A stretch of 64,000 bases of DNA, from assembly GCA_038044205.1 (NCBI GenBank), contig JBBTAN010000017.1, positions 30,027-94,026 of the forward strand, given 5' to 3'. This DNA comes from Nanobdellota archaeon. GTDB lineage: Archaea; Nanobdellota; Nanobdellia; Pacearchaeales; GW2011-AR1. This document shows positions 1-48,188 of the stretch, one piece after another. The position numbers and the translations under genes are program-made. Each line of letters begins with the position of its first letter. Position 1 is the first letter of the stretch. Below the pieces are notes generated by a model that was not told the DNA's origin, did no database searches, and saw only the letters and a program-made list of their open reading frames with translations.

Positions 1-13
1 TTTTTATTATCAC

Positions 14-58
14 CCAGCAATTCCTCCCGCCGCTAAAGCAAGCGGGCTTCCTTGCTGG
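14..58 (+). ncRNA. GC-rich nested hairpin with UAAA tetraloop, copy 1 of 3
   Basis: outer stem ccagcaa 14-20 / ttgctgg 52-58; inner stem cccgc 26-30 / gcggg 42-46; apex gc-taaa-gc; same architecture with compensatory changes at 23701-23756. Confidence 0.45.
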
Positions 59-96
59 AAAACCCTGTGAAGAAATATATAAAAGGAATAAATTAA

Positions 97-426
97 ATGT
101 ATAATACAAAAGAAGAAGCAGAAATATCTGCTCAAAAATCAAAGGATATGCTTGATAAATATTGGAAAATAAATATAAAGAAATGTAATAAAGGTTGGTT
201 TTTTGTTCTAACTAATGGATGTAGATCTATATATAAACATTCTAATGGAAAATATTCATGTATGATTACAGATACCCAGAATTATCTTGGCCCTGATGAA
301 GAATGGAGAAATAGAGAATTATTCTATAAACCTGAAAATAGTTTTTCTAAATCTCTTTTAGGAGCTATCAAAAAAGCTGAAAGGATATGGCAAAAATACA
401 TAAAACATATAAATGATTCTTATTAA
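97..426 (+). CDS. hypothetical protein
   Basis: 109-aa ORF with SD-like aaaagga upstream; no family recognised. Confidence 0.6.
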   Translation: MYNTKEEAEISAQKSKDMLDKYWKINIKKCNKGWFFVLTNGCRSIYKHSNGKYSCMITDTQNYLGPDEEWRNRELFYKPENSFSKSLLGAIKKAERIWQKYIKHINDSY

Positions 427-438
427 AAGGAGAAAAGA

Positions 439-624
439 ATGTCACAAGAAGTAAATGATCTACTAAATAAAAAAATTACTTTTCTATTAACAGATGGAAC
501 AACTGTTATAGGTAGGCTAATTAAAGAAAATGTAGATACCGTTGATATGGAATCTTTTGAAGAAAGACCTGCTAATAATTTTAGAATCAGAAAGTCTAAT
601 ATCGTATATTACAAATACGAATAA
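439..624 (+). CDS. small protein, weakly Sm/Hfq-fold-like
   Basis: 61 aa, SD aaaggag; LLNKKITFLLTDGTTVIGRL..VDM resembles an Sm-type strand pattern, weak. Confidence 0.5.
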   Translation: MSQEVNDLLNKKITFLLTDGTTVIGRLIKENVDTVDMESFEERPANNFRIRKSNIVYYKYE

Positions 625-640
625 GAAAGGAGAAAGTAAC

Positions 641-898
641 ATGTTTACCAGAACTAGCTACGCAGTCAAGAGCGGTGATAGGCAAATGATCTTCAACCTC
701 TTTAGGAACAATGATTATAAGGAAACATTTAAGGGACGAGAAGATGATACGGTTGTTAGAATCGAATCTAATGAATATGAGAAAATGGAAAAGGCTGTAC
801 ATGATATGCAGGTACTCAGAGACGGCCTGAAAGAACAGCTTACTTCAATAGATACAGAAGAGGATCTTGATCCAGATGACACCGGAACCGAAAACTAA
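641..898 (+). CDS. hypothetical protein, acidic C-terminus
   Basis: ATG 641 follows SD aaaggagaaag; the track start at 542 lies inside the previous gene. Confidence 0.6.
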   Translation: MFTRTSYAVKSGDRQMIFNLFRNNDYKETFKGREDDTVVRIESNEYEKMEKAVHDMQVLRDGLKEQLTSIDTEEDLDPDDTGTEN

Positions 899-911
899 AG
901 GAAATAATTAA

Positions 912-1151
912 ATGAAAAATAAACTAGATGAACATATTGATAAAACGGCTGAATTAGTTATGGAACGTCTTATTAATCCCAATGTCACAAATGCCACTCC
1001 TATAGAAAGCGATATAATTAATCTTTTATCTTATATTTATCAAGAATTAAAAGAAAAAGATAATGAAATAAAATATCTAGAAGAACAAATATGTAAAATA
1101 GAAAAGAAATTATCTTTTACTGCGAATGTTGTTATGGAAATGGATAGGTAG
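912..1151 (+). CDS. hypothetical coiled-coil protein
   Basis: 79-aa ORF with SD-like aaagga. Confidence 0.55.
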   Translation: MKNKLDEHIDKTAELVMERLINPNVTNATPIESDIINLLSYIYQELKEKDNEIKYLEEQICKIEKKLSFTANVVMEMDR

Positions 1152-1211
1152 TTTTCTAAATCCATAAACTTATTACTATAAAAATATAATCAAATAAGAA
1201 AGGATAACTAT

Positions 1212-1823
1212 ATGAAAGATTATCCCTCTATCGCACGTTCAAATAAAGCTCCTATTGGAGAACATTGTATAGCTTTCTATAAATATGATGGGAGTAATTT
1301 ACGCTGGGAATGGTCCAAGAAAAAGGGATGGAATAAATTCGGAACTAGGAATCATCTATTTGATAAAAATGATCTACAGTTCGGACAAGCTATTCCTCTT
1401 TTTCTTGAAACCATTGCACCTAAATTAGATGATATAATTAAACAAGAATTTAAAAATATTGATATAGTAACTGTATTTACTGAATATTTTGGTCCATCTT
1501 CTTTTGCTGGACAACACCTTCCTGATGAAAAGAAAGAACTTCGTCTTTTTGATGTTTGTCCTCATAAAAAATGTATGATGAATCCTAAAGATTTTATTAA
1601 TATTTTTGGTTCTTTACCATTTGCAGCCCAAGTTGTTTATGAAGGAATACTCGCTGAACAATTTATTGATGATATAAGAAATAATAAATATCCTGTAAAT
1701 GAAGGTGTTGTCTGTAAAGGAGGTGATAGACATAATCTATGGATGGTAAAAATTAAAACAAATATATATAAACAGAAATTAATTGATACTTATGGAAATA
1801 GATGGAACAATTATTGGGAATAA
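1212..1823 (+). CDS. RNA/DNA ligase-family nucleotidyltransferase, short Rnl-like
   Basis: motif I FYKYDGSN (KxDG), then TEYFG, EGVVCKG and WMVKIKT in the order of ligase motifs III, IV and V. Confidence 0.7.
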   Translation: MKDYPSIARSNKAPIGEHCIAFYKYDGSNLRWEWSKKKGWNKFGTRNHLFDKNDLQFGQAIPLFLETIAPKLDDIIKQEFKNIDIVTVFTEYFGPSSFAGQHLPDEKKELRLFDVCPHKKCMMNPKDFINIFGSLPFAAQVVYEGILAEQFIDDIRNNKYPVNEGVVCKGGDRHNLWMVKIKTNIYKQKLIDTYGNRWNNYWE

Positions 1824-1837
1824 ATTATATTTTATAT

Positions 1838-1880
1838 TCAATTGATCCTTTCGTCTCAAAACCTTTATTATTCTATGGTA
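1838..1880 (+). promoter_or_regulatory. degenerate motif-2 element
   Basis: TCAATTGATCCTT followed by ttattc and tatggtAGATGAGAAA; tandem with the full copy at 1919. Confidence 0.4.
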
Positions 1881-1918
1881 GATGAGAAAGAACAAAGAAA
1901 AATAAAATAATTTATATT

Positions 1919-1961
1919 CCAACTGATCCGACATGCTTCTTGTTCCTTCTCATTCTATTAT
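1919..1961 (+). promoter_or_regulatory. motif-2 element (CCAACTGATCCGA-N24-TATTAT)
   Basis: 13-mer shared with 7 other sites; a -10-like hexamer lies 12 nt before ATG 1974. Confidence 0.55.
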
Positions 1962-1973
1962 AGAACAAAGGAA

Positions 1974-2300
1974 ATGACTATGAAACTAGGAGAAATTTTT
2001 ATAATAGTAGCTATTGCAATGATACTTGGTTCTTTATTTTTCTCTTATATAAAAGAATTTAGAGATTCTGTTAAACCTCAATTAGGAAAACAAGTAATTG
2101 AATTGCCAAAAGAAAAACAGATAATATATGAAGAACAAGTAGATAATACAAATATTGGTTTCTTGATAAATATGGCAATAATCTGGTTGGTATTGGATAT
2201 GAAAAGAATTGGATTTATAAAAATATTATTGGAAAAACTTCTTTCGTTGCTTCTCATTTTACTTTGGAACAAAGAAAGAAAACATCATGAAACCAATTGA
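1974..2300 (+). CDS. membrane protein, family T
   Basis: N-terminal TM helix plus IKEFRDSVKPQ, shared with the 2287 gene. Confidence 0.55.
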   Translation: MTMKLGEIFIIVAIAMILGSLFFSYIKEFRDSVKPQLGKQVIELPKEKQIIYEEQVDNTNIGFLINMAIIWLVLDMKRIGFIKILLEKLLSLLLILLWNKERKHHETN

Positions 2301-2601
2301 ACTTGCAATTACTGTTTTTATTATTTCTATTGTTGGCTATATTTTTATTTCAGGTATAAAAGAATTCAGAGACTCTTTAAAACCTCAACCTGTTATAGAA
2401 AAACAAATCCAATCAAAGGAAAATATTCAAGTAAATTATAAAAAAGAAATAGCTAAATTAAATATTATTATTTTAGATATGGAACAAAAAATCAGAGACC
2501 TAGAAAAACTACACGTTGAACAAGAATCTTTTATTTCAGATACAAGGAATATAGAAAAAAGACTGCGACAACTAGAAAAAATTCATTGCGAAAAAGAATA
2601 G
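2287..2601 (+). CDS. membrane-anchored coiled-coil protein, family T
   Basis: TM helix plus IKEFRDSLKPQ; paralog of 1974. Confidence 0.6.
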   Translation: MKPIELAITVFIISIVGYIFISGIKEFRDSLKPQPVIEKQIQSKENIQVNYKKEIAKLNIIILDMEQKIRDLEKLHVEQESFISDTRNIEKRLRQLEKIHCEKE

Positions 2602-2605
2602 AATG

Positions 2606-2614
2606 TTGTATAAT
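2606..2614 (+). promoter_or_regulatory. TTGTATAAT -10-like element upstream of tRNA-Leu
   Basis: gTTGTATAATTAGTTt ends 12 nt before the tRNA 5' end; near-identical strings at 13456 and 47040. Confidence 0.5.
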
Positions 2615-2626
2615 TAGTTTAGAAAT

Positions 2627-2717
2627 GCGGTAGTAGCCGAGCGGCACAGGCAAGGCGCTTAAAACGCCTCGGAAGTAGCAATACTTCTTGTGAGTTCGAA
2701 TCTCACCTACCGCACCA
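2627..2717 (+). tRNA. trnL: tRNA-Leu (anticodon UAA), type II with long variable arm, CCA encoded
   Basis: acceptor gcggtag/ctaccgc; anticodon stem aggcg/cgcct with loop cTTAAaa; variable arm gaagta-gcaa-tacttc; T arm gtgag-ttcgaat-ctcac. Confidence 0.9.
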
Positions 2718-2746
2718 TTTCTTGTTTTTATTAAAGGAAATATAAA

Positions 2747-3532
2747 ATGATAACAAAAGATGAGTTAGTTCAATTATGGAATTCAGATATTACTGTAGTG
2801 AAAGTTAGAGAAAAGTTAGGGAGAATTTCAGAGAGACAATTGTATAAATACCTAAAATTGTACGACATCCCCAAAAGAAAAAGGGGAGGAGTTAGGAAAC
2901 AAACGACATATCCACAAACCATAGAATCTGCTTATGTTATGGGACTTGCTATTGGCGATGGAAATATTTCTAAATTAAAAAGAACTTTAAGACTTAGATT
3001 GTATTGCGATGAAAGATATAAAAAACTTATAGATAAATGGAAGTTATCTTGTGAAAATGTATTTCAAAGAAGAGTGTCTATATCAAATCATCATTGTGGC
3101 AAATGTAAAATCATATCTATACATACTAATGCTCTTTCTACTTTTCCTTGGGAACCAAATAAAGGACATAAATGGAAGCAAAAAGTAAAGATTCCAGATT
3201 GGATAATTGAAAACGAGGAATTTTTACATGCTTGTATGAGAGGTTTGTTTGAAACAGATGGTTGTTAGTATACACAGATAATAAAAACAAAAAATCATGA
3301 ATATTGTTATGAAAGAGCTAATTTTTGCAATTCGTCAAAAGAATTAATAAAACAGGTGATAAATTATCTTAAAAAATATGATATTCATTTTTGCGTATTC
3401 AAAAGAAAATATAGAAAAGGTATCATTAGAATTACTAGACAGAAATTTAAATCTACCTCAACAAATTATGCTATTGCTGTAAATGGATATGAAAAATTAA
3501 AAGAATTGACAGGATTTGTAAAGAAGGAATAA
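2747..3532 (+). pseudogene. LAGLIDADG homing endonuclease interrupted by an in-frame TAG at 3266-3268
   Basis: motifs MGLAIGDGN and RGLFETDGC; after the TAG the same frame stays open for 87 more codons (..FCNSSKELIKQVINYLKKYDIHF..), ending at TAA 3530. Confidence 0.75.
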
Positions 3533-3539
3533 AAAAAAT

Positions 3540-3670
3540 AACAGGTTGCAATGTAGATGACCGATATATTAGGTGGGAAATGGGCCGGAGCGTCATGTCC
3601 TCCGTTATTATCTCCTTAACCGAAAGCTGCCGCCCATGCTGAAGGCTTTCCTTTTACATTGCAACCTGTT
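3540..3670 (+). ncRNA. hairpin-closed GC-rich structured element U1
   Basis: perfect 16-bp closing stem aacaggttgcaatgta 3540-3555 / tacattgcaacctgtt 3655-3670 around a GC-rich core of about 100 nt. Confidence 0.45.
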
Positions 3671-3684
3671 TTTAATTAAAAAAT

Positions 3685-3799
3685 AGAAAATAAATAATGT
3701 CCTTTGTGTGGAGCCAAGCCAGCCGGTGATAAACACACCGTTAGTTTTCTCGGCGTAGTCTGTTGCTGGTAACTGTAGGACTACTATTATTTATTTTCT
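3685..3799 (+). ncRNA. hairpin-closed structured element U2
   Basis: closing arms agaaaataaataatgtcct / aggactactattatttattttct; GC-rich core with gtgtg/cacac and ccagc/gctgg pairings. Confidence 0.4.
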
Positions 3800-3814
3800 T
3801 TTTATTTTTTATTT

Positions 3815-3909
3815 AGAAAAATAATAATATTGCTTATTGCAAACTACTTGGCCAGGATAACATGTATTTTGTTCGGCCAATTCAGTAGAAATACTATTAT
3901 TATTTTTCT
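3815..3909 (+). ncRNA. hairpin-closed structured element U3
   Basis: 15-bp closing stem agaaaaataataata 3815-3829 / tattattatttttct 3895-3909; inner ttggcc/ggccaa stem. Confidence 0.4.
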
Positions 3910-3919
3910 TTTTTATTTT

Positions 3920-4009
3920 GGCAGATGATACCGCATTGTGGCGGATAAATTGGAGCAAAATGCGCGGGATGCAATCTATTTTCCAATTTTAGGATTGTTA
4001 TCATCTGCC
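3920..4009 (+). ncRNA. hairpin-closed structured element U4
   Basis: 11-bp closing stem ggcagatgata / tatcatctgcc followed by a T run; core contains attgtggc and attttccaatt strings. Confidence 0.4.
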
Positions 4010-4024
4010 TTTTTAAATAAAAAA

Positions 4025-4107
4025 AATATATTAGTTCTCTTTTGTGTAGAGTGTCATTTAACCGCCTATAATGACAACAAATTCATCCAATTTGTAGCTA
4101 ATATATT
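4025..4107 (+). ncRNA. hairpin-closed structured element U5
   Basis: closing stem aatatattag / ctaatatatt; inner stem gtcatt/aatgac. Confidence 0.35.
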
Positions 4108-4189
4108 TAAAACAAAGTCACTTGTAGTGAGGGAATGGAACGAATAGATAGTGAACTGCGCTTCCCATCTATCTAAAACCCACAATCCC

Positions 4190-4229
4190 GCCAGATGAAT
4201 CTCCATATAATCTGGCCTTTGTTTTTTTA
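4190..4229 (+). terminator. hairpin plus T-run closing the noncoding array
   Basis: gccagat 4190-4196 / atctggc 4210-4216 followed by ctttgttttttt. Confidence 0.5.
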
Positions 4230-4241
4230 TTAGGGAGAAAA

Positions 4242-4619
4242 ATGAAAAATATAGAAAATAAATCCGTTATTGAGGAGATGAACTTTTATCCACGTAAAAT
4301 GAAATGTTTTAAATGTGGAATTACAATTGTTTTTTATGGAAATAAGAAGCCAAGTATTAGTTATGATGATTGGGATTTGAGGGATAATAAAGAAATATGT
4401 TATAGGTGTGCAACTACTAATTGTAGGTCAATAGATCCAATGAATATGAGTTTACTTCATTATGCTGCTTTAGAAAATAGATTAGAATCATGTAAATTTT
4501 TAATAAATAAAATAGATATAAATATATTAAATGATAGAAATGAAACACCATTAGATTTGGCGAAGGATAAAAAATTAATTTATTTTTTAGAAAGTAAGGG
4601 AGCAAAAAGGAGTAAGTAA
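4242..4619 (+). CDS. zinc-ribbon plus ankyrin-repeat protein, family F N-terminus
   Basis: FKCGITIVFYG..CYRCA Cys pairs; C-terminal LLHYAALENRLESCKFLINK..NETPLDLA ankyrin signature. Confidence 0.75.
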   Translation: MKNIENKSVIEEMNFYPRKMKCFKCGITIVFYGNKKPSISYDDWDLRDNKEICYRCATTNCRSIDPMNMSLLHYAALENRLESCKFLINKIDINILNDRNETPLDLAKDKKLIYFLESKGAKRSK

Positions 4620-4620
4620 A

Positions 4621-4884
4621 ATGAGAGAAGAAACTGTTGTTGAGACAAAAGCATGGAAACTTACTTGTAATGATTGTGGTAGGATAGAATTTTATTATGG
4701 AGATAAATTGCCTACTCATTTTTGGTTAGGATGGAATTTAGATGGAGGTGAACTTTGTTTTACCTGTGCATCAGTAGCAGGTAAACCAACTAACGCATCT
4801 CAGGAATTAGCTCAGAGAAAAGAGGATAAAAAGAATAAAAAAGGAGTAAGTAAACATGGAAAGACACACAAGACCACCTCTTAA
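4621..4884 (+). CDS. zinc-ribbon protein, family F
   Basis: CNDCGRIEFYYG..CFTCA parallels the N-terminus of 4242. Confidence 0.6.
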   Translation: MREETVVETKAWKLTCNDCGRIEFYYGDKLPTHFWLGWNLDGGELCFTCASVAGKPTNASQELAQRKEDKKNKKGVSKHGKTHKTTS

Positions 4885-5170
4885 AGCACCATTTTCAGTT
4901 GGAACTAAACTTAGATATATAGGAGATAGGAAAGTATCTTCTCTTATTGATGGAAAATATGTTCCTATTCTTTTTAATGGAATGGAAACTAAAATTATTT
5001 CCATTAGCCCTGGCTGGCAAGGAACGGGAATGATTATAGATGTAAATGATGAAACAGGTGAGGATATAATTGATTGCACTCATGATGATACTTCAGTATA
5101 TGAAACAGTAAATGGAGAGAAAAGATTGATTCACAATGAAAATAAAAAAGAATGGCAGGTAATAGAATGA
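4856..5170 (+). CDS. hypothetical protein, family E
   Basis: SD aaggagtaagtaaac; PPLKAPFSVGTKLRYIGDR..KKEWQVIE. Confidence 0.65.
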   Translation: MERHTRPPLKAPFSVGTKLRYIGDRKVSSLIDGKYVPILFNGMETKIISISPGWQGTGMIIDVNDETGEDIIDCTHDDTSVYETVNGEKRLIHNENKKEWQVIE

Positions 5171-5478
5171 AAAATACAAATCCACCATTAGAAGCTCCAT
5201 TTCCAGTTGGGACTAAATTAAAATATATTGGAGACAGGAGAAGTTGTGCTTTTATTAATGGAGAATATGTTCCTTGTATGTATAATGGCCTGGAAATAGA
5301 AATTATTTCCATTGACAAAGGAAGACATGGAACAGGACAAGTTCTTTTTGTAGATGAAGAAACAGGCGAAGAAGCATATTATAATACTGTAAATGGAAGC
5401 TCAGTATATGAAAATATAAAAGGTGAGAAGAGGTGTATTTTTCCTGAAAGTAAAAATGAATGGCAAGTAATAGAATAG
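5167..5478 (+). CDS. hypothetical protein, family E
   Basis: ATGA overlap with the 4856 stop; PPLEAPFPVGTKLKYIGDR..KNEWQVIE. Confidence 0.65.
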   Translation: MKNTNPPLEAPFPVGTKLKYIGDRRSCAFINGEYVPCMYNGLEIEIISIDKGRHGTGQVLFVDEETGEEAYYNTVNGSSVYENIKGEKRCIFPESKNEWQVIE

Positions 5479-5492
5479 AAAGGAAAATAAAC

Positions 5493-5915
5493 ATGAACTG
5501 GGACCATAAGGATATTTGGCGGAAACGTGAAGATAAATTTTTAATTGAAATTTCTAGGCATGAAGTGGATTATAAAGAGAAAGATAAAGGATCAAGTAGA
5601 TGGTGTATTTATATTTATATCTATCCTGGATATTTTTTGTTTGAGAAAATTTTAAAAGAAGGAAGACATTCTGATATTATTAATGATATGCCATTGCATG
5701 GTGGAGAGTCTTATTTTCAGAAACATATAAATGAAAAAGGAGAAATAACAAGTATACAAATTGGTGCAGATTACGATCATCTCCATGATGACAGATATTC
5801 ATTCTACAATACAAAAGAAAATGCTTCTTCAGTGTTTGCAGATGCTGATAATCTTTTTAACTGGGCAAAAATAAATAATAAAGAAAAAGAATCAATTGTA
5901 TTTTATGATATTTAA
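5493..5915 (+). CDS. hypothetical protein
   Basis: ATG 5493 after SD gaaaggaaaataaac; the track start at 5460 overlaps the previous gene. Confidence 0.6.
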   Translation: MNWDHKDIWRKREDKFLIEISRHEVDYKEKDKGSSRWCIYIYIYPGYFLFEKILKEGRHSDIINDMPLHGGESYFQKHINEKGEITSIQIGADYDHLHDDRYSFYNTKENASSVFADADNLFNWAKINNKEKESIVFYDI

Positions 5916-5926
5916 AAGGAGTAAAA

Positions 5927-6460
5927 ATGGAAATCATCAATATGTCAGTTGAGTTCAAAGTTATGGAAGAATTAAAAAATAAATTGTGTAGTATTAATAG
6001 TGATTTACATATTTCTTTCTATATAGATAGAAGAAAATCGACAGTTGGTTTAACTTTTGATGAAAAATGTATTGAATGGCAAATTGATGTTAAAGATAGA
6101 GAAAGATTTGTATTGAAAACATATTGTATATCTGAAAATATTATGAGAGGAATAAGAACCAATAGCGACAGTAAAAGATATCCAGATATTCATCCAGAAT
6201 CAGAAGATGTTACATCTGTTGTAAATGATATTCTTTTTATTATAAAAGAATATAATAAAAGTATTAGTGACATGCCAGAGAAGCAACGGAAATTTATAGA
6301 GGATGGAGCTAAGAAATGTCCTTATTGCGATAATTGGTTATTTCTTACTTCTTGTAATTTCCCTTCTATACGTTTTGGAACAGTTGAATTTTATGTTACA
6401 TGTAAATCTTGTAATAAAAATATAAATGTTATATATAAATTGGATCGTTTTGAGGAATAG
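5927..6460 (+). CDS. hypothetical protein with C-terminal zinc ribbon
   Basis: 177 aa, SD aaaggag; CPYCDN..CKSCNK. Confidence 0.65.
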   Translation: MEIINMSVEFKVMEELKNKLCSINSDLHISFYIDRRKSTVGLTFDEKCIEWQIDVKDRERFVLKTYCISENIMRGIRTNSDSKRYPDIHPESEDVTSVVNDILFIIKEYNKSISDMPEKQRKFIEDGAKKCPYCDNWLFLTSCNFPSIRFGTVEFYVTCKSCNKNINVIYKLDRFEE

Positions 6461-6509
6461 GATATGAGCAAATCTACATTAGTTGAGAAAGCATTATTGG
6501 CATTTTAAC

Positions 6510-6586
6510 GAGGGCGTAGCTCAGTTGGCTAGAACAAAAAGCTTTTAACTTTTAGGCCGTGAGTTCGAGCCTCACCGCTCTCACCA
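6510..6586 (+). tRNA. trnK: tRNA-Lys (anticodon UUU), CCA encoded
   Basis: acceptor gagggcg/cgctctc; anticodon stem aaaag/ctttt with loop cTTTTaa; T arm gtgag-ttcgagc-ctcac; one C-A mismatch in the D stem. Confidence 0.85.
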
Positions 6587-6621
6587 TTTTAACAAACAAA
6601 AATATAGAAAGGAGAGTAAAT

Positions 6622-7200
6622 TTGACTCACATTCCTATTGTAATTGAAAAGACTAAAGGCGGAGAACGCGGCTATGATATTTATAGCCGTTTACTCAAAG
6701 ATAGTATTATTTTTATTGGTGATTCAATTGATGATAATTTAGCTAATTCTGTTATTGCGCAAATGTTATTTCTCAGCCTAGAGAAAAAAGAAAAAGAAAT
6801 ATCTATTTATATTAATAGTCCAGGTGGTAATGTTACTTCAGGCATGGCTATATATGATACTATGCGTTATATTTCTAATCCTATTGCGACTTTCTGTCTT
6901 GGACAATGCGCCAGCATGGCTGCTGTTCTTTTAGCGGCTGGAGATAAAGGAAGACGGTTCTCTCTTCCTAATTCAAGAATTATGATTCATCAACCTTGGG
7001 GCGGGGCGTCGGGAAGCGCGTCTGATATTAGAATCCAAGCTAATGAAATTGAACGTCTAAAAAAATCAATTAATAAAATATTAGTAGATCATTCTGGTAA
7101 ACCTATTGAGACTGTAGAAAAAGATACAGATAGGGATTTTTTTATGAGTCCAAAAGAAGCTATTGAATATGGTTTAATTGATACTGTTCTTGGAGAATAA
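6622..7200 (+). CDS. clpP: ATP-dependent Clp protease proteolytic subunit ClpP
   Basis: TTG start after SD aaaggagag; [35 protein letters not shown] (Ser), MIHQPWGG (His), EAIEYGLID; the track ORF start lies inside the tRNA. Confidence 0.9.
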
Positions 7201-7203
7201 TAA

Positions 7204-7530
7204 ATGGATTTCTTACCTAAAAAAAGAATAATTAGAGAATTTTCATTAGGTGTTTTAAAAAATCCACAAGTATGGCCTCAAAATTTTCTTTTTGTTATGA
7301 AAATAAAAAATGATTTACATTTAGAATTATTAGGAGTTGTATTTGCAAATGAATATATTGTTCATGCTATTAAACAAGATAAACCTATCTGGGACTCAAT
7401 AGCAGCAGGAGAAGATGAAATTTATATCTATAAATCCTATGAAGATATGATAGATGATAATTGGTTTGTTAATCCGCATAGCTATAATCAACAATGCTGT
7501 GCAATTAAACTCAAATGGAGTGGAGAATAA
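7204..7530 (+). CDS. hypothetical protein
   Basis: 108-aa ORF, SD ggag 8 nt upstream. Confidence 0.6.
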   Translation: MDFLPKKRIIREFSLGVLKNPQVWPQNFLFVMKIKNDLHLELLGVVFANEYIVHAIKQDKPIWDSIAAGEDEIYIYKSYEDMIDDNWFVNPHSYNQQCCAIKLKWSGE

Positions 7531-7544
7531 TTTTTTTCTATTTT

Positions 7545-7582
7545 CCAATTGATCCGACCATGAACCAAATTTATTTTATTTT
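7545..7582 (+). promoter_or_regulatory. motif-2 element (CCAATTGATCCGA-N19-TATTTT)
   Basis: preceded by tattttCC; 24 nt upstream of ATG 7606. Confidence 0.55.
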
Positions 7583-7605
7583 TATTTTTGAAAAGGAGAA
7601 AATAA

Positions 7606-7935
7606 ATGAAAAAGCAATTTGTTGCTGTATTAAATATTACTGTTTATAATGAAGATAATTATTCAAATGATATATCTGCTATTACTGGAAATTCAATTGA
7701 TGAAATAACAATAAAAATAAAAGAAAATATTAAAAATGGAATTCATTTTAATTCTGTAGAGATCTATGAAGTAAATAATAATCCTATTATTTTAGATTTA
7801 AATGAATTATATAAAGAGATAGAAAAAGAAAGAAAGGCTGAATATAGAAAGAAAAATAAAGAAGCTAAAATTAAACAGGAAGCTAGGGATAAAGAATTAT
7901 ATTTGGAATTAAAAAAGAAATACGAAAAGGAATAA
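7606..7935 (+). CDS. hypothetical protein
   Basis: 109 aa, SD aaaaggag; very rich in AAA, ATA and TTA codons. Confidence 0.65.
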   Translation: MKKQFVAVLNITVYNEDNYSNDISAITGNSIDEITIKIKENIKNGIHFNSVEIYEVNNNPIILDLNELYKEIEKERKAEYRKKNKEAKIKQEARDKELYLELKKKYEKE

Positions 7936-7940
7936 ATAAA

Positions 7941-8453
7941 ATGGGAAAGTTTGAAAATTCAGATATAGATGAGCAAATTATTATTGATCTTGAAAATAAA
8001 ATGAAACAGTGTATGGATGAATATGGGAACATGACTCTGGGGTATCATGATACCTATAAAGCATTGAAATTGGCTAAAAATAGTAAAGATGAAGCAGCTA
8101 TAAAAGAAGCTCAAAGAAATCATCAAAAAACTATTGAAAATGATAATGATAAAAGGATTGAAAACGGTAAGAAATATAATGAATTATATTTAGAATTAAT
8201 TAAAATATTAACATCTATTAGAATACCTAAAACATACCATATTAGAGATGGATGTCACAATTGTGTTTATGGTTTTGATATGGGAGGCGAAACGTCAGGA
8301 GAACAACTTATCTGTACAATTCGCAAGCCAAATATAAAAACTGAAAGACTTTATAGTAATTATGATCATACTAGCTCTGGTACATCAAAAGATATTTTTT
8401 ATTGCAGACAAGTAGAATCATCTGGTTATTGTGATGGGCATAAAAAGGAGTAA
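7941..8453 (+). CDS. hypothetical protein
   Basis: 170 aa with SD. Confidence 0.65.
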   Translation: MGKFENSDIDEQIIIDLENKMKQCMDEYGNMTLGYHDTYKALKLAKNSKDEAAIKEAQRNHQKTIENDNDKRIENGKKYNELYLELIKILTSIRIPKTYHIRDGCHNCVYGFDMGGETSGEQLICTIRKPNIKTERLYSNYDHTSSGTSKDIFYCRQVESSGYCDGHKKE

Positions 8454-8457
8454 AAAT

Positions 8458-9012
8458 ATGAAATATTTTTTTGTTATTGATACTGAACAATATGCTGGAA
8501 ATTTTCAAAGAGAGATGGCTGCTTATATTACAGGAAGATGGGATTTTGAAACTCATGGGGAAAAAGAAGCTGATGCATTTATTAAAGAAGAAGGAGAAGA
8601 GACTTCCAGAAAATTTGATGAGACTATTATAGGTATAAATGATGATGAACATGGATGGTTTGTTGCTGCGCTTATTGCTACTCCAGGTTGGTTTAACAAT
8701 GGTCTAGGAGGCGAGTTTAGGGACGGTCAAGATAAAGAGGCAGAAAAACACTACAATAAAGAATCAAAGAGATGGGAAGGTAAGTATGGAGATAAAGCGG
8801 AAAAATATAATGGGCAAAAATATCCTTCATATCAAAGTATTGGAGTTGTATTCAGCAAGAAACCAACTGATAAAATGATAGAAACTATGAAACGTAGGGC
8901 TAAAGATTATGCTAAAAATTATAAAGATTGTATTGGTAGAAAACAAAAAATAAATATTACTAATTTTAGGCTAGTTACAGAAAAAATTATTAAAAAAGAA
9001 ATTTATATTTAG
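8458..9012 (+). CDS. hypothetical protein
   Basis: ATG 8458 after SD aaaaggagtaaaaat; MKYFFVIDTEQYAGNF.. Confidence 0.65.
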   Translation: MKYFFVIDTEQYAGNFQREMAAYITGRWDFETHGEKEADAFIKEEGEETSRKFDETIIGINDDEHGWFVAALIATPGWFNNGLGGEFRDGQDKEAEKHYNKESKRWEGKYGDKAEKYNGQKYPSYQSIGVVFSKKPTDKMIETMKRRAKDYAKNYKDCIGRKQKINITNFRLVTEKIIKKEIYI

Positions 9013-9024
9013 GAGTAAAAGAAA

Positions 9025-9354
9025 ATGAAAACAGAAACAGATTTTCCTGAAAATATTACTATTGGCGATAAATATGGACCTGCTATGAAAATAACTGATC
9101 AGGATGAAGCTAATATTTATTTTGAGAAGTGTGTTCGTCATCAAATGTGGTTTAATAAATCTAGAGATGAAGCAGTAAGTATTGAGAAACAGAACCTTGG
9201 TTATTTTTCTGGTTATTATGATTCTGAAACTATGGAAAGGGTGCAGAAATTATTTAATTGTTCTCATCCGGTTTTTGGTAAAGTAACAGCAGGTAATCCT
9301 CCTACACCTGAAGAAGCATTTAATGCTGGCGTAAAAATTGGAAAGAAAAAATAA
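9025..9354 (+). CDS. hypothetical protein
   Basis: 109 aa, SD aggag. Confidence 0.65.
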   Translation: MKTETDFPENITIGDKYGPAMKITDQDEANIYFEKCVRHQMWFNKSRDEAVSIEKQNLGYFSGYYDSETMERVQKLFNCSHPVFGKVTAGNPPTPEEAFNAGVKIGKKK

Positions 9355-9366
9355 AAAGAGGAAGAA

Positions 9367-9762
9367 ATGAAAAATGATTCTTCAGTTGAAACAGTTTTTG
9401 AATGCCAGAGATGTAAAGGAACATTTAAAACTAGAGAGGCTTTTAATAAACACCTAAATATTAAATTAAAAGTAGGAGATCTTACTTCCTGTGATGGACT
9501 AGAACTATTTATTATTGAAAGAATAGATGATTGCAAGATAATTGCTAAATTATTTTCTCTAGATGCAGAACTAAAAGAAGATGCTGAAGTATTTGAATTT
9601 GAACATGATCAATTAACTAAAGCAACAAATTGCGAAATTAAAACGGCTATTGAAGAAGCTATTGAAACTATTAAAGATAAAGAATTCACTATAAAAGAAT
9701 TTAAAAATGATATTAATTTTATAAAGAAACAAATTAAATATTTGAAAGCAAGGGGTAAGTAA
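9367..9762 (+). CDS. hypothetical protein, N-terminal CxxC motif
   Basis: 131 aa with SD; FECQRCKGTFKTREAFNKH. Confidence 0.6.
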   Translation: MKNDSSVETVFECQRCKGTFKTREAFNKHLNIKLKVGDLTSCDGLELFIIERIDDCKIIAKLFSLDAELKEDAEVFEFEHDQLTKATNCEIKTAIEEAIETIKDKEFTIKEFKNDINFIKKQIKYLKARGK

Positions 9763-10197
9763 ATGTATAAAAGCGATTCTCCATATTATAAAGTATTGGA
9801 ACTAGCTGGAGCAACTATTAAAAGGTTCGGAGAATTCGGTTCCTATCAAGGTGAATGGTGGGCTGAAGTAATATATAAAGATAAACGTGGTTGGGTAAAT
9901 GGTTTTTATGGATCCTGTACTGGTTGTGATGCACTATTAGCTGAATTTGGTAGAGCCGATCATAACTGTAATGGAGAGGAATACTATGATCCTATTTATA
10001 AAATGAATTTCAGAGAAAATTGCAAAACATGTCAAAATATAAAAAAGAGATTAATTGAATTGGGAGAAAAATACTTAGAAAATATTATGTCTAAAGCAGA
10101 TGCAATCACTCTAGCAAGAAAAAATTCAGATTGGGATGTTGAAGCAGATAAAATGGTTGATTTTATTAAAAATAAACAAAAAGGAATTAAAAAATGA
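9763..10197 (+). CDS. hypothetical Cys-rich protein
   Basis: 144 aa; GSCTGCD and CKTCQ motifs. Confidence 0.65.
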   Translation: MYKSDSPYYKVLELAGATIKRFGEFGSYQGEWWAEVIYKDKRGWVNGFYGSCTGCDALLAEFGRADHNCNGEEYYDPIYKMNFRENCKTCQNIKKRLIELGEKYLENIMSKADAITLARKNSDWDVEADKMVDFIKNKQKGIKK

Positions 10198-10460
10198 AAG
10201 ATGACAAAGTTATAACTGAAGACCCTCTTTTGCCTGCACCTTCTGTTATTATGAAGAAGTATTCTAGCAAACTAAGTTTAGAAGGATACGAAGAAGCAAG
10301 AATCCTTTTATCATTCCTTGATAGAGAAGCTGATAATAAAATGAAAGAAAAATTTATTAAATTTCTAAGAGATATAACTATTAAATATATCGAAAAATGG
10401 GATATAAAAGAACATGTGGAACAAGATTATCTTGACGAGATCAGTGAAATTACTAAATAA
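10194..10460 (+). CDS. hypothetical protein
   Basis: 88 aa, ATGA overlap with the previous stop. Confidence 0.6.
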   Translation: MKDDKVITEDPLLPAPSVIMKKYSSKLSLEGYEEARILLSFLDREADNKMKEKFIKFLRDITIKYIEKWDIKEHVEQDYLDEISEITK

Positions 10461-10477
10461 ACAAAAAGGAAATAAAA

Positions 10478-10978
10478 ATGGACGATGAAAATCTAATCAA
10501 AGAAGAAACAATAACTACAACTACTTATACATTACCAGATGGTAGAAAATATACAGATTACGCTGTAGCTAAATCTTTCCTAAACTCATATAAAAAAGAA
10601 CTTGAAAGACAACAAATAGCACAAAAACAACAAGAAGAAGAAAAGGAAATACTAAAATCTTTATTCTGCGAAGGAAATCCTAAATATGGAGGATTTTGGA
10701 TATATCTCTCTGACAAAGAATCATTTAATAAAATAAAGAAAATTAAATTAGATCATGATAAGCATGATTGGGAAAAAGGTTGGAATTATGTGGAATTTAA
10801 AGAATATAAATCTTGCAATAATGATGATTATGAAGATGAAGACGAAGAAGGGAAACCTGATGGAAATTTTAATGTAACAACTATCGACACAGAAATAGAA
10901 TTAAATAATAAAGCAATTAATTATTATAATAATAAAGCTAAAGAACTAAATGAAAGAAAAAATAATAATCCTGTTTAA
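10478..10978 (+). CDS. hypothetical protein
   Basis: 166 aa with SD. Confidence 0.65.
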   Translation: MDDENLIKEETITTTTYTLPDGRKYTDYAVAKSFLNSYKKELERQQIAQKQQEEEKEILKSLFCEGNPKYGGFWIYLSDKESFNKIKKIKLDHDKHDWEKGWNYVEFKEYKSCNNDDYEDEDEEGKPDGNFNVTTIDTEIELNNKAINYYNNKAKELNERKNNNPV

Positions 10979-11001
10979 TTTTTATATTTTATTTTCACCC
11001 A

Positions 11002-20438: not shown

Positions 20439-20458
20439 TTTACAGATGGATTATTTTC

Positions 20459-23849: not shown

Positions 23850-24440
23850 ATGGAACAGGCTGTTAAATTTGATGCGAACAATATCAATTACACGGTTAAG
23901 CAATTGTGTGATGCTGTAAATGGAGTTTTTGTAAACAATAGTGATAAATATAACATCATTAATCATTTTTTGAATAATGAAATTGAAACTGCTCAATTGC
24001 ACGATATTATTACTGATACTGTTGAAAATGTTATTTCTGATTATAATTTCAGGTCTATCGTTAAAAACGTTATGCGAGATATGCCTACTGAAATAGTTAA
24101 TAGCGATGAAGTTGAATCTATTGTTGATGAAAAGATCAAGGAAATTGTTAACGATAAAAATGAGGCTATTCAGCAGACTATTGAAAATATTGCTGATGCC
24201 ACTCAAGATAATAGTAAAACTGTCAAAGATCTTAATCTTAAACTTGATGCTATCAATATTCGTATTGATAGACTTTATGCTTTGGATGTTATTTCTGCAA
24301 ATAAAACTGTAAAAGAGCTTACGAGTAAGCTTGATGCTGCCAATATGTGTATTGATAGACTCTATGCTTTGCTGAAGGAGAGCTATAAACTTATTGCCCA
24401 CTTCGATATGGAAAATAGTCCCAAGAAGAGGTTTGAGTGA
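23850..24440 (+). CDS. coiled-coil protein with internal repeat
   Basis: 196 aa; LKLDAINIRIDRLYALD / SKLDAANMCIDRLYALL repeat; no TTA, CTA or TCA codons across most of the gene. Confidence 0.7.
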   Translation: MEQAVKFDANNINYTVKQLCDAVNGVFVNNSDKYNIINHFLNNEIETAQLHDIITDTVENVISDYNFRSIVKNVMRDMPTEIVNSDEVESIVDEKIKEIVNDKNEAIQQTIENIADATQDNSKTVKDLNLKLDAINIRIDRLYALDVISANKTVKELTSKLDAANMCIDRLYALLKESYKLIAHFDMENSPKKRFE

Positions 24441-24444
24441 ACTA

Positions 24445-24471
24445 CCCTATGCTAAAGCCACAGGGCTTTCC
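24445..24471 (+). ncRNA. UAAA-tetraloop hairpin, copy 3
   Basis: ccct-at-gc-taaa-gc-cac-aggg followed by CTTTCC. Confidence 0.35.
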
Positions 24472-24490
24472 GGCGCTAAACGTCTGTAAT

Positions 24491-24535
24491 AAAGATCAGG
24501 TGATTTAGAAATTTACCACCTGATCTTTATTTTTA
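24491..24535 (+). terminator. rho-independent terminator-like hairpin
   Basis: 12-bp stem aaagatcaggtg / cacctgatcttt followed by a T-rich tract. Confidence 0.6.
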
Positions 24536-40874: not shown

Positions 40875-40999
40875 GCAGTTGGAATGAAAGGAGGAATAAT
40901 ATGTAAATATATATTATTTTTTCAATTGTGTCACTTGTGTAACTAATTTTTTGTAAGTGTAGGTCATAAATGACCTGAAAAATGAAAGGAAAAAGTAAA

Positions 41000-41550: not shown

Positions 41551-41580
41551 AGGGGAGAGTTTATTAAACTCTCCCCTTTC
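41551..41580 (+). terminator. terminator-like hairpin
   Basis: 10-bp stem aggggagagt / actctcccct followed by ttt. Confidence 0.6.
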
Positions 41581-41637
41581 CCTATTATAGAGGGACAATT
41601 TATTTTCTAATTTTATGGCCAAGAAAAGGAGAAAAAT

Positions 41638-48149: not shown

Positions 48150-48188
48150 AAGGGGAGGGGCGCGCACCCCTCCCCTTTTTCTTTTATT
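48150..48188 (+). terminator. strong rho-independent terminator
   Basis: aaggggagggg-cgcgca-cccctcccctt followed by tttttctttt. Confidence 0.85.

What the first reader, a model, noticed from the sequence alone, without database searches (positions are those of the whole stretch)
3540..4230. About 690 nt of noncoding DNA made of five or six consecutive hairpin-closed, GC-enriched elements downstream of tRNA-Leu and a homing endonuclease
No convincing ORF exists between the LAGLIDADG gene and 4242. The region instead resolves into units of 83-131 nt (3540-3670, 3685-3799, 3815-3909, 3920-4009, 4025-4107). Each unit is closed by a long, mostly AT-rich terminal stem of 10-19 bp, the first being a perfect 16-mer. 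Each encloses a core far GC-richer than the genome, with further internal pairings. A terminator-like hairpin at 4190-4229 ends the array.

In AT-rich genomes, GC-rich intergenic islands are a classic signature of structured RNA genes. The location in a tRNA/homing-endonuclease neighbourhood recalls the two stable RNAs of unknown function in the T4 tRNA cluster. I could not match the units to tRNA, tmRNA, RNase P or 6S features. They do not share sequence with each other apart from short strings also seen in motifs 1 and 2 (attttccaatt and attgtggc in U4) and a CCCaTGCTgAAGGCTTTCC string in U1 that resembles the 24445 hairpin.
Basis: partly seen in the sequence, partly recalled or inferred. 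Interest (0 to 1): 0.75.

Follow-up and report, generated by a model that had tools for sequence, protein, structure and literature searches.

The report
Six stem-closed noncoding modules beside tRNA
A 690-base gene-free stretch in an uncultivated ~500 kb groundwater phage is built of six back-to-back modules, each clamped shut by a long stem; it is most likely a co-transcribed array of small structured RNAs of an undescribed type, but no relatives or expression data exist to prove it.

Summary
Positions 3540-4230 carry no called gene. They fold on either strand into six consecutive closed units. Five long closing stems tile the region. No shuffle gave more than 2-3, and no other place in the 64 kb window comes close.

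The stems of U1-U3 and U5 stay significant when only the AT-rich spacers are shuffled. U4 is marginal and U6 is not significant. Only U3, U5 and U6 have interiors more structured than chance. Only U1, U2, U4 and U6 are clearly GC-enriched.

In a sequence-only alignment their closing stem and first hairpin stay 100% paired through 7 two-sided changes.

A sigma-70-like promoter sits before tRNA-Leu and a terminator-like hairpin ends the array, both on the + strand. Rfam, ARAGORN, GenBank phages, IMG/VR and a JGI metagenome scan gave no family and no homolog.

My best reading (about 0.45) is a polycistronic array of stem-closed small RNAs made from the tRNA-Leu transcript. It is analogous in layout to T4 rnaC/rnaD. 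Function is unknown. DNA-level palindromes, terminator/stabiliser structures and selfish remnants remain open.

The parts
2586..2614 (+). Sigma-70-type promoter-like site (TTGCGA, 17 nt, TATAAT, with TG before the -10) just upstream of tRNA-Leu. It is the likely start of the transcript that would run into the array.
   Evidence: It matches 10 of 12 consensus positions, the best site in 2400-4400. No comparable + strand site lies inside the array. tRNA-Met is preceded by the same TGTATAAT.
2627..2717 (+). tRNA-Leu (anticodon UAA) with an encoded CCA end.
   Evidence: ARAGORN. Rfam RF00005, 54.9 bits.
2747..3532 (+). Free-standing LAGLIDADG homing endonuclease frame interrupted by an in-frame TAG at 3266-3268. 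It is either a pseudogene or a read-through product.
   Evidence: The ORF 2747-3268 continues in frame to the TAA at 3530-3532. PF14528 LAGLIDADG_3 scores E 6.5e-7 over residues 160-226, which spans the TAG.
3540..3670 (+). U1, 131 nt. The closing stem is 3540-3555 with 3655-3670: 16 bp perfect, 18-19 bp with one mismatch. The core is 51% GC.
   Evidence: Stem reached by 0/2000 spacer shuffles. The core alone is not more structured than shuffles (z -0.3).
3685..3799 (+). U2, 115 nt. The closing stem is 14 bp perfect and AT-only except for one G-C. The first hairpin is UCC/GGA with loop UUUGUGU. The core is 51% GC.
   Evidence: Stem reached by 0/2000 shuffles. The 3' end is 25 nt similar to U3. 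Covariation with U3 and U4.
3815..3909 (+). U3, 95 nt. The closing stem is 15 bp perfect. The first hairpin is UUGC/GCAA. A long second hairpin follows. CCAATTCAGTAG lies just before the 3' arm.
   Evidence: Whole unit z -6.0, core z -3.6. Stem reached by 0/2000 shuffles.
3920..4009 (+). U4, 90 nt. The closing stem is 11 bp. The first hairpin is CCGC/GCGG with loop AUUGUG. CCAATTTTAG lies before the 3' arm.
   Evidence: The stem is marginal under the conservative shuffle (54/2000). It aligns with U2 and U3.
4025..4107 (+). U5, 83 nt. The closing stem is 10-12 bp. It forms a four-way junction. The first hairpin is CUCU/AGAG with the same UUUGUGU loop as U2. CCAATTTGTAG lies before the 3' arm.
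   Evidence: z -4.4. Stem reached by 4/2000 shuffles. Motif positions.
4109..4226 (+). U6, about 118 nt. It has a weak 9-bp closing stem around three hairpins.
   Evidence: The closing stem is not significant (329/2000). The core has z -3.4.
4190..4229 (+). Terminator-like hairpin, the last hairpin of U6: GCCAGAT, 13-nt loop, ATCTGGC, then CTTTGTTTTTTT. It lies directly before the ribosome-binding site of the gene at 4242.
   Evidence: -10.2 kcal/mol, z -3.7. Sequence.

Best explanation
The region is a polycistronic array of small, stem-closed structured RNAs read from the + strand.

**Transcription (inferred from sequence signals).**
- It starts at the sigma-70-type promoter at 2586-2614.
- It passes through tRNA-Leu and the (possibly dead) LAGLIDADG gene.
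- It crosses six modules of 83-131 nt.
- It mostly stops at the hairpin plus U-run at 4190-4229.

**Module design.** In each module the 5' and 3' ends pair into a 9-19 bp helix (shown). At least U2-U4 arose by tandem duplication and have kept that helix and a small first hairpin through compensating changes (shown).

**Processing (inferred).** The 10-15 nt all-A/U linkers between U1-U5 are the kind of single-stranded AU-rich sites that RNase E-type enzymes cut in tRNA precursors. Cutting there would release individual RNAs whose paired ends resist exonucleases. Alternatively, the long perfect helices could be RNase III sites.

**Function (guess).** The released RNAs would act as stable protein-binding or decoy RNAs during infection. 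This would tie in with the tRNA and RNA-ligase biology encoded next to them, as is suspected but unproven for T4 rnaC/rnaD.
For: - **Closing stems beyond chance.** Five tiled stems against at most 2 in 500 shuffles, and the unique maximum in the window. U1-U3 were reached by 0/2000 and U5 by 4/2000 when only the spacers were shuffled.
- **Robust fold.** The whole-region fold keeps every module, z -8.2.
- **Paralog covariation.** A sequence-only MAFFT alignment of U2, U3 and U4 gives 18 pairs and 100% of cells paired. Seven pairs changed on both sides, against 0/500 shuffles; slid controls gave 46-75% paired with at most 1 two-sided change.
- **Significant U2-U3 similarity**.
- **Shared positional motifs.** TTTGTGT occurs 8 times in the window, and two of these are the first-hairpin loops of U2 and U5. 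CCAATT-N(1-3)-TAG occurs 4 times in the window, and three of these sit just before the 3' arm of U3, U4 and U5, spaced 106 and 104 nt apart.
- **GC content.** The cores of U1, U2, U4 and U6 are 43-51% GC against 29.6% for the genome, like the tRNAs.
- **Strand signals.** Promoter at 2586-2614. Terminator-like hairpin. T-runs follow five of the six 3' arms on the + strand. All neighbouring genes are on the + strand.
- **No coding signal**.
- **Precedents.** T4 has the same layout of tRNAs, homing endonuclease and two adjacent stable RNAs of 119 and 139 nt. Those two RNAs also have no Rfam family. GOLLD and ROOL are phage RNAs that often lie near tRNA islands (PMC12286853).
- **Neighbouring gene.** An RNA-ligase-family gene (1212-1823) lies 0.8 kb upstream of tRNA-Leu. 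Its homologs sit inside tRNA islands of other huge phages.
Against: - No homolog exists in any collection searched, so there is no independent covariation.
- The two strands fold with identical energy, and G-U counts (14 against 12) do not favour the + strand.
- The closing stems of U1-U3 are perfect Watson-Crick repeats, as expected for DNA-level or very young repeats.
- The cores of U1, U2 and U4 are no more structured than shuffles.
- The closing stem of U6 is not significant.
- A covariance model built from U2-U4 does not find U1, U5 or U6, so one family of six is not demonstrated.
- The paralog alignment has only three sequences, and the structure was derived from them.
- There are no expression data. 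No promoter lies inside the array, so expression depends on read-through of 0.8 kb of endonuclease gene.
Confidence: 0.45

Rival explanations
1. A DNA-level cis element. The inverted repeats would act in DNA, as cruciforms or single-strand hairpins, or as phased protein-binding sites about 105 bp apart. Possible roles are replication, packaging, partition or recombination, or small invertible segments.
For: - Both strands fold equally well (-207.3 kcal/mol each) and there is no G-U asymmetry.
- The closing repeats of U1-U3 are perfect Watson-Crick.
- The CCAATT..TAG motifs are spaced 104-106 bp, about ten helical turns.
- Three cores lack excess RNA structure.
Against: - Each unit has a different repeat sequence, so one recombinase or binding protein could not recognise them all.
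- The arms lie 60-100 bp apart, unlike protein-bound palindromes.
- GC-rich interiors and conserved small hairpins with compensating changes have no obvious DNA-level role.
- There is no GC-skew turn and no divergent transcription here.
- There are no iterons.
Confidence: 0.15
2. The array consists of transcript-end structures rather than RNA genes. It would be a series of A-tract, structured core, U-tract modules at the 3' end of the tRNA-Leu/endonuclease operon. These would stop or slow RNA polymerase, insulate the downstream genes from a strong tRNA promoter, and protect the upstream RNA from 3' exonucleases.
For: - T-runs directly follow five of the six 3' arms.
- U1, U2 and U5 also have A-runs before the 5' arm, as bidirectional terminators do.
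- The last hairpin is terminator-like.
- The array lies downstream of a strong promoter.
- This reading needs no function for the cores, which fits the unstructured cores of U1, U2 and U4.
Against: - Recognisable terminators elsewhere in this genome are short GC-rich hairpins with small loops, for example at 48150-48180 and 41570-41595. They are not helices enclosing 60-100 nt.
- Six in a row is excessive.
- The terminator scan found only one weak candidate, inside U2.
- This reading does not explain the GC-rich cores, the conserved first hairpin or the positional motifs.
Confidence: 0.15
3. One large multi-domain RNA of about 700 nt, analogous to GOLLD or ROOL (large phage RNAs near tRNA islands that assemble into RNA-only cages). 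The six modules would be its domains, not separate products.
For: - The size (690 nt), the phage origin and the position next to a tRNA match what is described for GOLLD and ROOL (PMC12286853).
- There is a single promoter and a single terminator.
- The global fold has z -8.
Against: - There is no match to any Rfam family, including GOLLD and ROOL, at E up to 10 with permissive filters.
- The fold is a string of independent closed domains joined by A/U-only linkers. It predicts no long-range pairings or pseudoknots.
- The tandem-duplicate origin suggests repeated small units.
Confidence: 0.1
4. Functionless or selfish DNA. The modules would be decaying tandem duplicates, or hairpin-forming mini-elements of the MITE or GC-cluster type known from other AT-rich genomes, that piled up in a permissive gap next to a mobile endonuclease gene.
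For: - The region lies next to a homing endonuclease that seems to be degenerating.
- A TnpB gene lies 5 kb away.
- No relatives are known.
- The units are bounded by inverted repeats.
- Three cores lack structure.
Against: - No other copy of any unit occurs in the 64 kb window.
- There are no clear target-site duplications.
- Decay would erode the 14-19 bp repeats, not keep them perfect through compensating changes.
Confidence: 0.15

Closest known systems
Phage T4 stable RNAs rnaC (species 1, 139 nt) and rnaD (species 2, 119 nt)
   Same: - The layout matches: a tRNA gene or genes, a free-standing homing endonuclease, then adjacent non-tRNA stable RNAs of about 100-140 nt on the same strand at the end of the cluster.
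- Neither has an Rfam family.
- Function is unknown for both.
   Different: - There is no sequence similarity.
- rnaC has a tRNA-like T arm (CCGGGUUCGAAUCCCGG) and only a short terminal helix. The units here have no T-arm motif and have 9-19 bp terminal helices.
- T4 has two such RNAs; this locus has six.
- The endonuclease family differs: GIY-YIG in T4, LAGLIDADG here.
GOLLD and ROOL large ornate RNAs of phages and prophages
   Same: Both are phage-encoded, noncoding, often next to tRNA islands and 580-800 nt in total size. Their function is unknown (PMC12286853).
   Different: - No covariance-model match was found.
- The predicted architecture here is a chain of independent stem-closed modules, not one interwoven fold with pseudoknots.
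Bacterial and phage Y RNAs (YrlA/YrlB) bound by Ro60/Rsr
   Same: - Both are about 100-nt RNAs whose 5' and 3' ends form a long helix around a structured module.
- Several copies can be encoded side by side.
- They are found in RNA-repair gene neighbourhoods. The architecture is taken from PMC4201824 and from my own knowledge of the rsr-yrlBA-rtcBA operon.
   Different: - There is no Rfam YrlA match.
- There is no GNCGAA(N)G T-loop-like motif (checked by eye).
- No ORF in the window is long enough for a TROVE-domain protein, whereas reported Y RNAs lie within 4 kb of Ro60.
Tandem paralogous small-RNA arrays in bacteria (for example Listeria LhrC1-4, RsmX copies); from my own knowledge, not tested here
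   Same: Both are several diverged RNA genes of about 100 nt in a head-to-tail row that arose by duplication.
   Different: Those sRNAs each have their own promoter and a 3' terminator hairpin, not a helix joining both ends. No internal promoters were detected here.
Miniature palindromic elements of AT-rich genomes (MITEs, ERIC, Rickettsia palindromic elements, yeast mitochondrial GC clusters); from my own knowledge
   Same: Both are units of about 100 bp bounded by inverted repeats. Both are GC-richer than their AT-rich surroundings, lie in intergenic DNA and sit near mobile endonuclease genes.
   Different: Those are multi-copy families with shared sequence. Here each unit is unique in the window, and the repeat sequences differ between units.

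Membership tests
tRNA / tmRNA | A cloverleaf with a T arm and D arm that ARAGORN or the Rfam tRNA and tmRNA models can detect. | tested here: not met
   ARAGORN finds only four tRNAs, none in 3540-4230. In Rfam at E up to 10 the only tRNA match in 2400-4500 is tRNA-Leu.
Any Rfam 15 family (including RNase P, 6S, GOLLD, ROOL, YrlA, HEARO, group I/II introns and self-cleaving ribozymes) | A covariance-model score at or near the family's gathering threshold. | tested here: not met
   There is no gathering-level hit in the array. The best sub-threshold hits score 12-22 bits against thresholds of 44-101, all with E above 2.
GOLLD / ROOL-like large phage RNA | A phage or prophage location near tRNA genes. 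| tested here: met
   tRNA-Leu lies 0.8 kb upstream. The window carries phage-type genes. The context criterion is taken from PMC12286853.
Y RNA (YrlA type) | Encoded within about 4 kb of a Ro60/Rsr (TROVE-domain) gene. | tested here: not met
   No ORF within 4 kb exceeds 213 aa, and the longest ORF in the window is 402 aa, an RNA ligase. The rest of the 500 kb contig was not available.
Y RNA (YrlA type) | A long helix formed by the 5' and 3' ends that encloses a structured module. | tested here: met
   The closing helices are 9-19 bp. This is a resemblance in architecture only.
T4 rnaC/rnaD-type stable RNAs | Sequence or structural homology to rnaC or rnaD. | tested here: not met
   blastn and nhmmer gave no significant match; the best blastn E was 0.15 for a 28-nt AT-rich stretch. 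The T arm of rnaC is absent here.
T4 rnaC/rnaD-type stable RNAs | Accumulation as stable processed RNAs in infected cells. | not testable with these tools
   No transcript data are available for this uncultivated phage.
MITE / palindromic repeat element | Multiple dispersed copies with shared sequence in the genome. | tested here: not met
   Short-word blastn of the region against the window gives only low-complexity A/T matches. Covariance model R1 finds nothing outside the array. Only 64 kb of about 500 kb could be searched.
MITE / palindromic repeat element | Target-site duplications flanking the terminal inverted repeats. | tested here: inconclusive
   The flanks are A/T runs, for example TTTT on both sides of U4. 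Low complexity prevents a call.
Intrinsic (Rho-independent) terminator | A compact GC-containing hairpin directly followed by a U-run. | tested here: met
   This is met only by the last hairpin, 4190-4216 plus CTTTGTTTTTTT. The long closing helices enclose 60-100 nt and do not fit.

The most novel reading that the evidence does not exclude
The array is a previously undescribed class of phage RNA. It would consist of tandemly duplicated, fast-diverging modules of about 100 nt whose ends are locked in a long helix. The modules would be released from a tRNA-promoter transcript. They would act as decoys or scaffolds for host or phage RNA-handling enzymes such as tRNA nucleases, RNase III or E, or RNA ligases. 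This would make them part of the tRNA/RNA-repair toolkit that huge phages carry in their tRNA islands.
Probability: 0.2. Interest if true: 0.7.

Novelty: new variant of a known kind. Interest (0 to 1): 0.45.

Why it matters
Huge phages carry tRNA islands with RNA ligases and other RNA-repair genes. The non-tRNA RNAs in such islands (T4 rnaC/rnaD, GOLLD, ROOL) have had no known function for decades.

An array in which one module design has been duplicated and re-tuned six times would be a compact, testable case. The helices, the first hairpin and the CCAAUU..UAG motif give defined targets for mutagenesis and pull-downs.

If instead the repeats act in DNA, the locus would mark an unusual cis element in a 500 kb phage genome. 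As it stands it is a well-documented candidate from a single genome, not a demonstrated RNA family.

Tried and rejected
- **Known RNA families.** Rfam at gathering thresholds and at E up to 10, plus ARAGORN, gave nothing in the array.
- **Homologs by DNA.** All searches came back empty:
  - GenBank phages by blastn: no match.
  - IMG/VR exact patterns from U1 and from tRNA-Leu: 0 hits each.
  - JGI metagenomes with a U1 20-mer: 10 hits, all chance matches inside 56-66% GC contigs with unrelated flanks.
  - GTDB genomes with a U2 21-mer: 0 hits.
- **Homologs by synteny.**
  - The downstream ankyrin gene has no homolog among 5.8 billion proteins. All contigs carrying it are essentially identical to the window; one 875-nt contig differs by a single-base gap.
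  - The endonuclease has no relative in IMG/VR.
  - The upstream RNA-ligase-family gene has 979 homologs. I fetched nine loci (L006-L015). None has sequence similarity to the array or an analogous chain of closed units.
- **Wasted search.** A concatenated query of 14 flanking proteins returned nothing, not even the proteins themselves.
- **Strand assignment.** Folding energy and G-U counts are uninformative; the tRNA controls show no asymmetry either.
- **One family of six.**
  - MAFFT plus RNAalifold on all six units gave no consensus structure.
  - Only U2-U3 are significantly similar.
  - Covariance model R1, built from U2-U4, does not recover U1, U5 or U6.
- **Descriptor search.** A generic descriptor (closing stem plus a small adjacent hairpin) is non-specific in this AT-rich genome: 97 + strand and 76 - strand hits. 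So the mere presence of a first hairpin is not evidence.
- **Hidden small genes.** Mini-ORFs of 8-20 codons with Shine-Dalgarno-like sequences exist in U1, U3, U4 and U6. However, the shared CCAATT..TAG motif falls in three different reading frames, so it is not coding conservation (read).
- **Other motifs checked by eye and rejected.** C/D-box and k-turn motifs, hammerhead cores, CsrA-type GGA loops, integron attC sites, archaeal bulge-helix-bulge sites and T-loop motifs.
- **IS ends.** The similarity of U1's 3' hairpin to the hairpins at 24445 and at 1-87 (next to TnpB) is limited to GCTRAAG..GGCTTYCC, and the pairing differs. I judged it coincidental.
- **Tandem Repeats Finder.** It sees only short TTAT-type repeats, not the 105-nt period.
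Full report
**Source and setting**

The window is identical to part of ENA contig Hain_H43_01um_R3_3_length_499814 from Hainich groundwater. NCBI labels its proteins as coming from a 'Nanoarchaeota archaeon' MAG. The content looks like a huge phage instead:
- About 140 small, mostly unannotatable genes lie almost all on one strand.
- There are four dispersed tRNAs.
- There is a ClpP-type protease that matches phage head-maturation proteases.
- There are a T4-type RNA ligase and a DUF932 protein.

GC content is 29.6%.

**The observation**

Between the end of the LAGLIDADG frame (3532) and the next gene (4242) there is no called gene and no credible ORF. The closing stems are 16 (18-19 with one mismatch), 14, 15, 11, 10-12 and 9 bp. 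Folding the whole 716 nt keeps all six closed modules on either strand, with z about -8.

I tested chance in three ways:
- Dinucleotide shuffles of the region never gave more than 2 tiled stems, against 5 observed.
- Among all 711-nt windows of the 64 kb this is the unique maximum.
- With the cores fixed and only the AT-rich spacers shuffled, the stems of U1, U2 and U3 were reached 0 times in 2000. U5 was reached 4 times, U4 54 times and U6 329 times.

So four stems are solid, one is marginal and one is not significant.

- Only U1 and U2 (51% GC) and U4 and U6 (43-45%) are clearly GC-enriched. U3 and U5 are 37% and 33%.
- Without the closing stem, only U3, U5 and U6 fold better than shuffles. 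U1, U2 and U4 do not.

**New anatomy: some units are diverged tandem copies**

U2 and U3 share a significant 25-nt match at their 3' ends (0/300 shuffles; also seen).

Two motifs recur at the same structural position:
- The 7-mer TTTGTGT occurs eight times on the + strand of the window. Two of those are the loops of the small hairpin that directly follows the 5' arm in U2 and U5.
- CCAATT-N(1-3)-TAG occurs four times in the window. Three of those sit just before the 3' arm of U3, U4 and U5, spaced 106 and 104 nt apart.

A plain MAFFT alignment of U2, U3 and U4 lines up both arms. On it, the closing helix plus the first hairpin (18 pairs) is 100% paired. Seven pairs are kept through changes on both sides. 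No shuffle of 500 matched this, and slid registers reached only 46-75% pairing with at most one such change. For example, two adjacent pairs are flipped (U-A/A-U to A-U/U-A) between U2 and U3.

The caveats are that there are only three sequences, that the structure was derived from them, and that paralogy beyond U2-U4 is not established. A covariance model built from U2-U4 scores those three at E below 1e-11. It does not find U1, U5, U6 or anything else in the window. RNAalifold on all six units finds no consensus.

**Strand and transcription signals**

The best sigma-70-type site in the neighbourhood (TTGCGA, 17 nt, TATAAT, 10 of 12 positions) lies at 2586-2614, immediately before tRNA-Leu. 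tRNA-Met is preceded by the same extended -10 element, TGTATAAT. No comparable site lies inside the array.

The last hairpin of U6 (4190-4216, -10.2 kcal/mol) is followed by CTTTGTTTTTTT, and then directly by the ribosome-binding site of the next gene. T-runs follow five of the six 3' arms on the + strand. On the - strand the equivalent is true for three.

The linkers between U1 and U5 are 10-15 nt of pure A/T.

Energy and G-U counts do not distinguish the strands. They do not for the window's tRNAs either.

**What it is not**

- ARAGORN and Rfam (4227 families, both strands, permissive E up to 10) find nothing in the array. This includes tRNA, tmRNA, RNase P, 6S, Y RNA, GOLLD, ROOL, HEARO, introns and ribozymes.
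- No unit recurs elsewhere in the window. A multi-copy palindromic element is therefore not supported, although only 64 of 500 kb could be checked.
- There is no similarity to T4 rnaC or rnaD.

**Search for relatives**

The DNA searches were all empty: GenBank phages, IMG/VR, one JGI metagenome scan and one GTDB genome scan. The ten metagenome hits were chance matches in high-GC contigs.

The synteny anchors failed as well:
- The downstream ankyrin gene is an orphan.
- The endonuclease has no IMG/VR relative.
- The upstream 203-aa RNA-ligase-family gene has 979 homologs of up to 77% identity, typically embedded in tRNA islands of large phage contigs. None of the nine loci I fetched has anything similar to the array.

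**Interpretation**

I favour, at about 0.45, a polycistronic array of stem-closed small RNAs on the + strand.

Shown:
- The helices.
- Their maintenance through compensating changes in U2-U4.
- The promoter and terminator signals.
- The absence of coding.
- The GC-rich cores in four units.

Inferred:
- Co-transcription with tRNA-Leu.
- Cleavage in the A/U linkers by RNase E-type enzymes, or in the helices by RNase III.
- Protection of the ends by the helices.

Guessed:
- A role as protein-binding or decoy RNAs linked to the adjacent tRNA and RNA-ligase functions.

The layout mirrors T4, where tRNAs, the segB endonuclease, tRNA-Arg, rnaD and rnaC follow each other on one strand. It also echoes the placement of GOLLD and ROOL near phage tRNA islands.

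The rivals are:
- A DNA-level palindromic or phased element (0.15). It is favoured by strand symmetry, perfect repeats and the 105-bp spacing.
- Terminator or stabiliser structures at the operon's 3' end (0.15). It is favoured by the A-tract/U-tract flanks and the unstructured cores.
- One large RNA of about 700 nt (0.10).
- Functionless or selfish remnants (0.15).

**Novelty and interest**

The kind of thing, non-tRNA structured RNA next to phage tRNAs and a homing endonuclease, is known. This particular design is not in any library I could search: a chain of diverged modules of about 100 nt, each locked by a long terminal helix.

It is a single-genome candidate with internal but not external evolutionary support, and with no expression data. 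I therefore rate it as moderately interesting (0.45) rather than the 0.75 first proposed.

Noticed in passing
window 11002, 11810, 20404, 22402, 29107, 31875, 39243, 45772, 49100, 53043, 55205, 61335 (and 23767 with one mismatch): The 9-mer ATGCCCGGA occurs 12 times exactly, always on the + strand. About 3 matches were expected when one mismatch is allowed, and 0/100 shuffles reached the observed count. Many copies lie in intergenic gaps. It is usually preceded by TTTYCC and followed about 20 nt later by TATTAT. This looks like a phage-specific promoter class. None lies in 1-11000, so it does not drive the array.
   Followed up: partly
window 3266-3268 within 2747-3532: The LAGLIDADG endonuclease frame contains an in-frame TAG directly after its second LAGLIDADG-like motif (GLFETDGC*). 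The Pfam LAGLIDADG_3 match spans the stop. This means a fresh pseudogene, a sequencing or strain variant, or read-through. TAG is otherwise used as a normal stop, in 13 of 94 long + strand ORFs.
   Followed up: partly
window 1212-1823; loci L006, L008, L009, L010, L012: A 203-aa RNA-ligase-family protein (KYDG motif; PF09414 in some homologs) has 979 homologs. In the loci fetched from large phage contigs it sits inside or beside tRNA islands, for example among 14 tRNAs in 8 kb in L009. It seems to be a conserved companion of phage tRNA clusters.
   Followed up: partly
whole window / contig ERZ1292626 Hain_H43_01um_R3_3_length_499814: NCBI names proteins of this 500 kb contig as 'MAG... [Nanoarchaeota archaeon]'. 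The gene content looks like a huge phage that was binned into an archaeal MAG: small one-strand ORFans, a ClpP-type head-maturation protease, phage RNA ligase, DUF932, dispersed tRNAs and TnpB.
   Followed up: partly
window 40982-41530: This ORF is up to 62% GC over about 550 nt in a 29.6% GC genome, and a strong GC hairpin terminator follows it. It is probably a recently acquired foreign gene.
   Followed up: no
window 1-87 and 24414-24505; L001 599-1681: A TnpB (OrfB_IS605/Cas12f-like) gene lies just left of the window. The GC-rich hairpin at window 13-58 (CCAGCAA...CCCGCCGCTAAAGCAAGCGGGCTTCC...TTGCTGG) is probably the insertion sequence end. A similar GCTAAAGC...GGGCTTTCC hairpin lies at about 24440-24475.
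   Followed up: no
window 20458, 53094, 28058, 11930: A motif CCAAYTGATCCGA recurs in intergenic regions. At 20458 and 53094 it lies downstream of an ATGCCCGGA...TATTAT site. It may be an operator or the start of a leader. U4 contains only the CCAATT part.
   Followed up: no
window 1974-2300 / 2287-2601 and 4856-5170 / 5152-5478: There are two pairs of adjacent paralogous small genes flanking the locus: membrane-protein-like pairs sharing IKEFRDS.KPQ, and proteins sharing PPL.APF.VGTKL.YIGDR. This shows that local tandem duplication is active here, as in the array.
   Followed up: no
L009 6016-6248: A HEARO RNA (the guide RNA of IscB nucleases; 126.6 bits against a threshold of 83) lies inside the tRNA island of a related phage contig.
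   Followed up: no
L012 9431-9500, 9783-9870, 12395-12510, 12300-12380: tRNA-like sequences missed by ARAGORN lie in a related huge-phage tRNA island. One has a duplicated CTCATAACCGCGG segment in the anticodon region. Three direct repeats of about 25 nt (CAGATATTGATCCACTTTTTATCTA) lie beside them.
   Followed up: no
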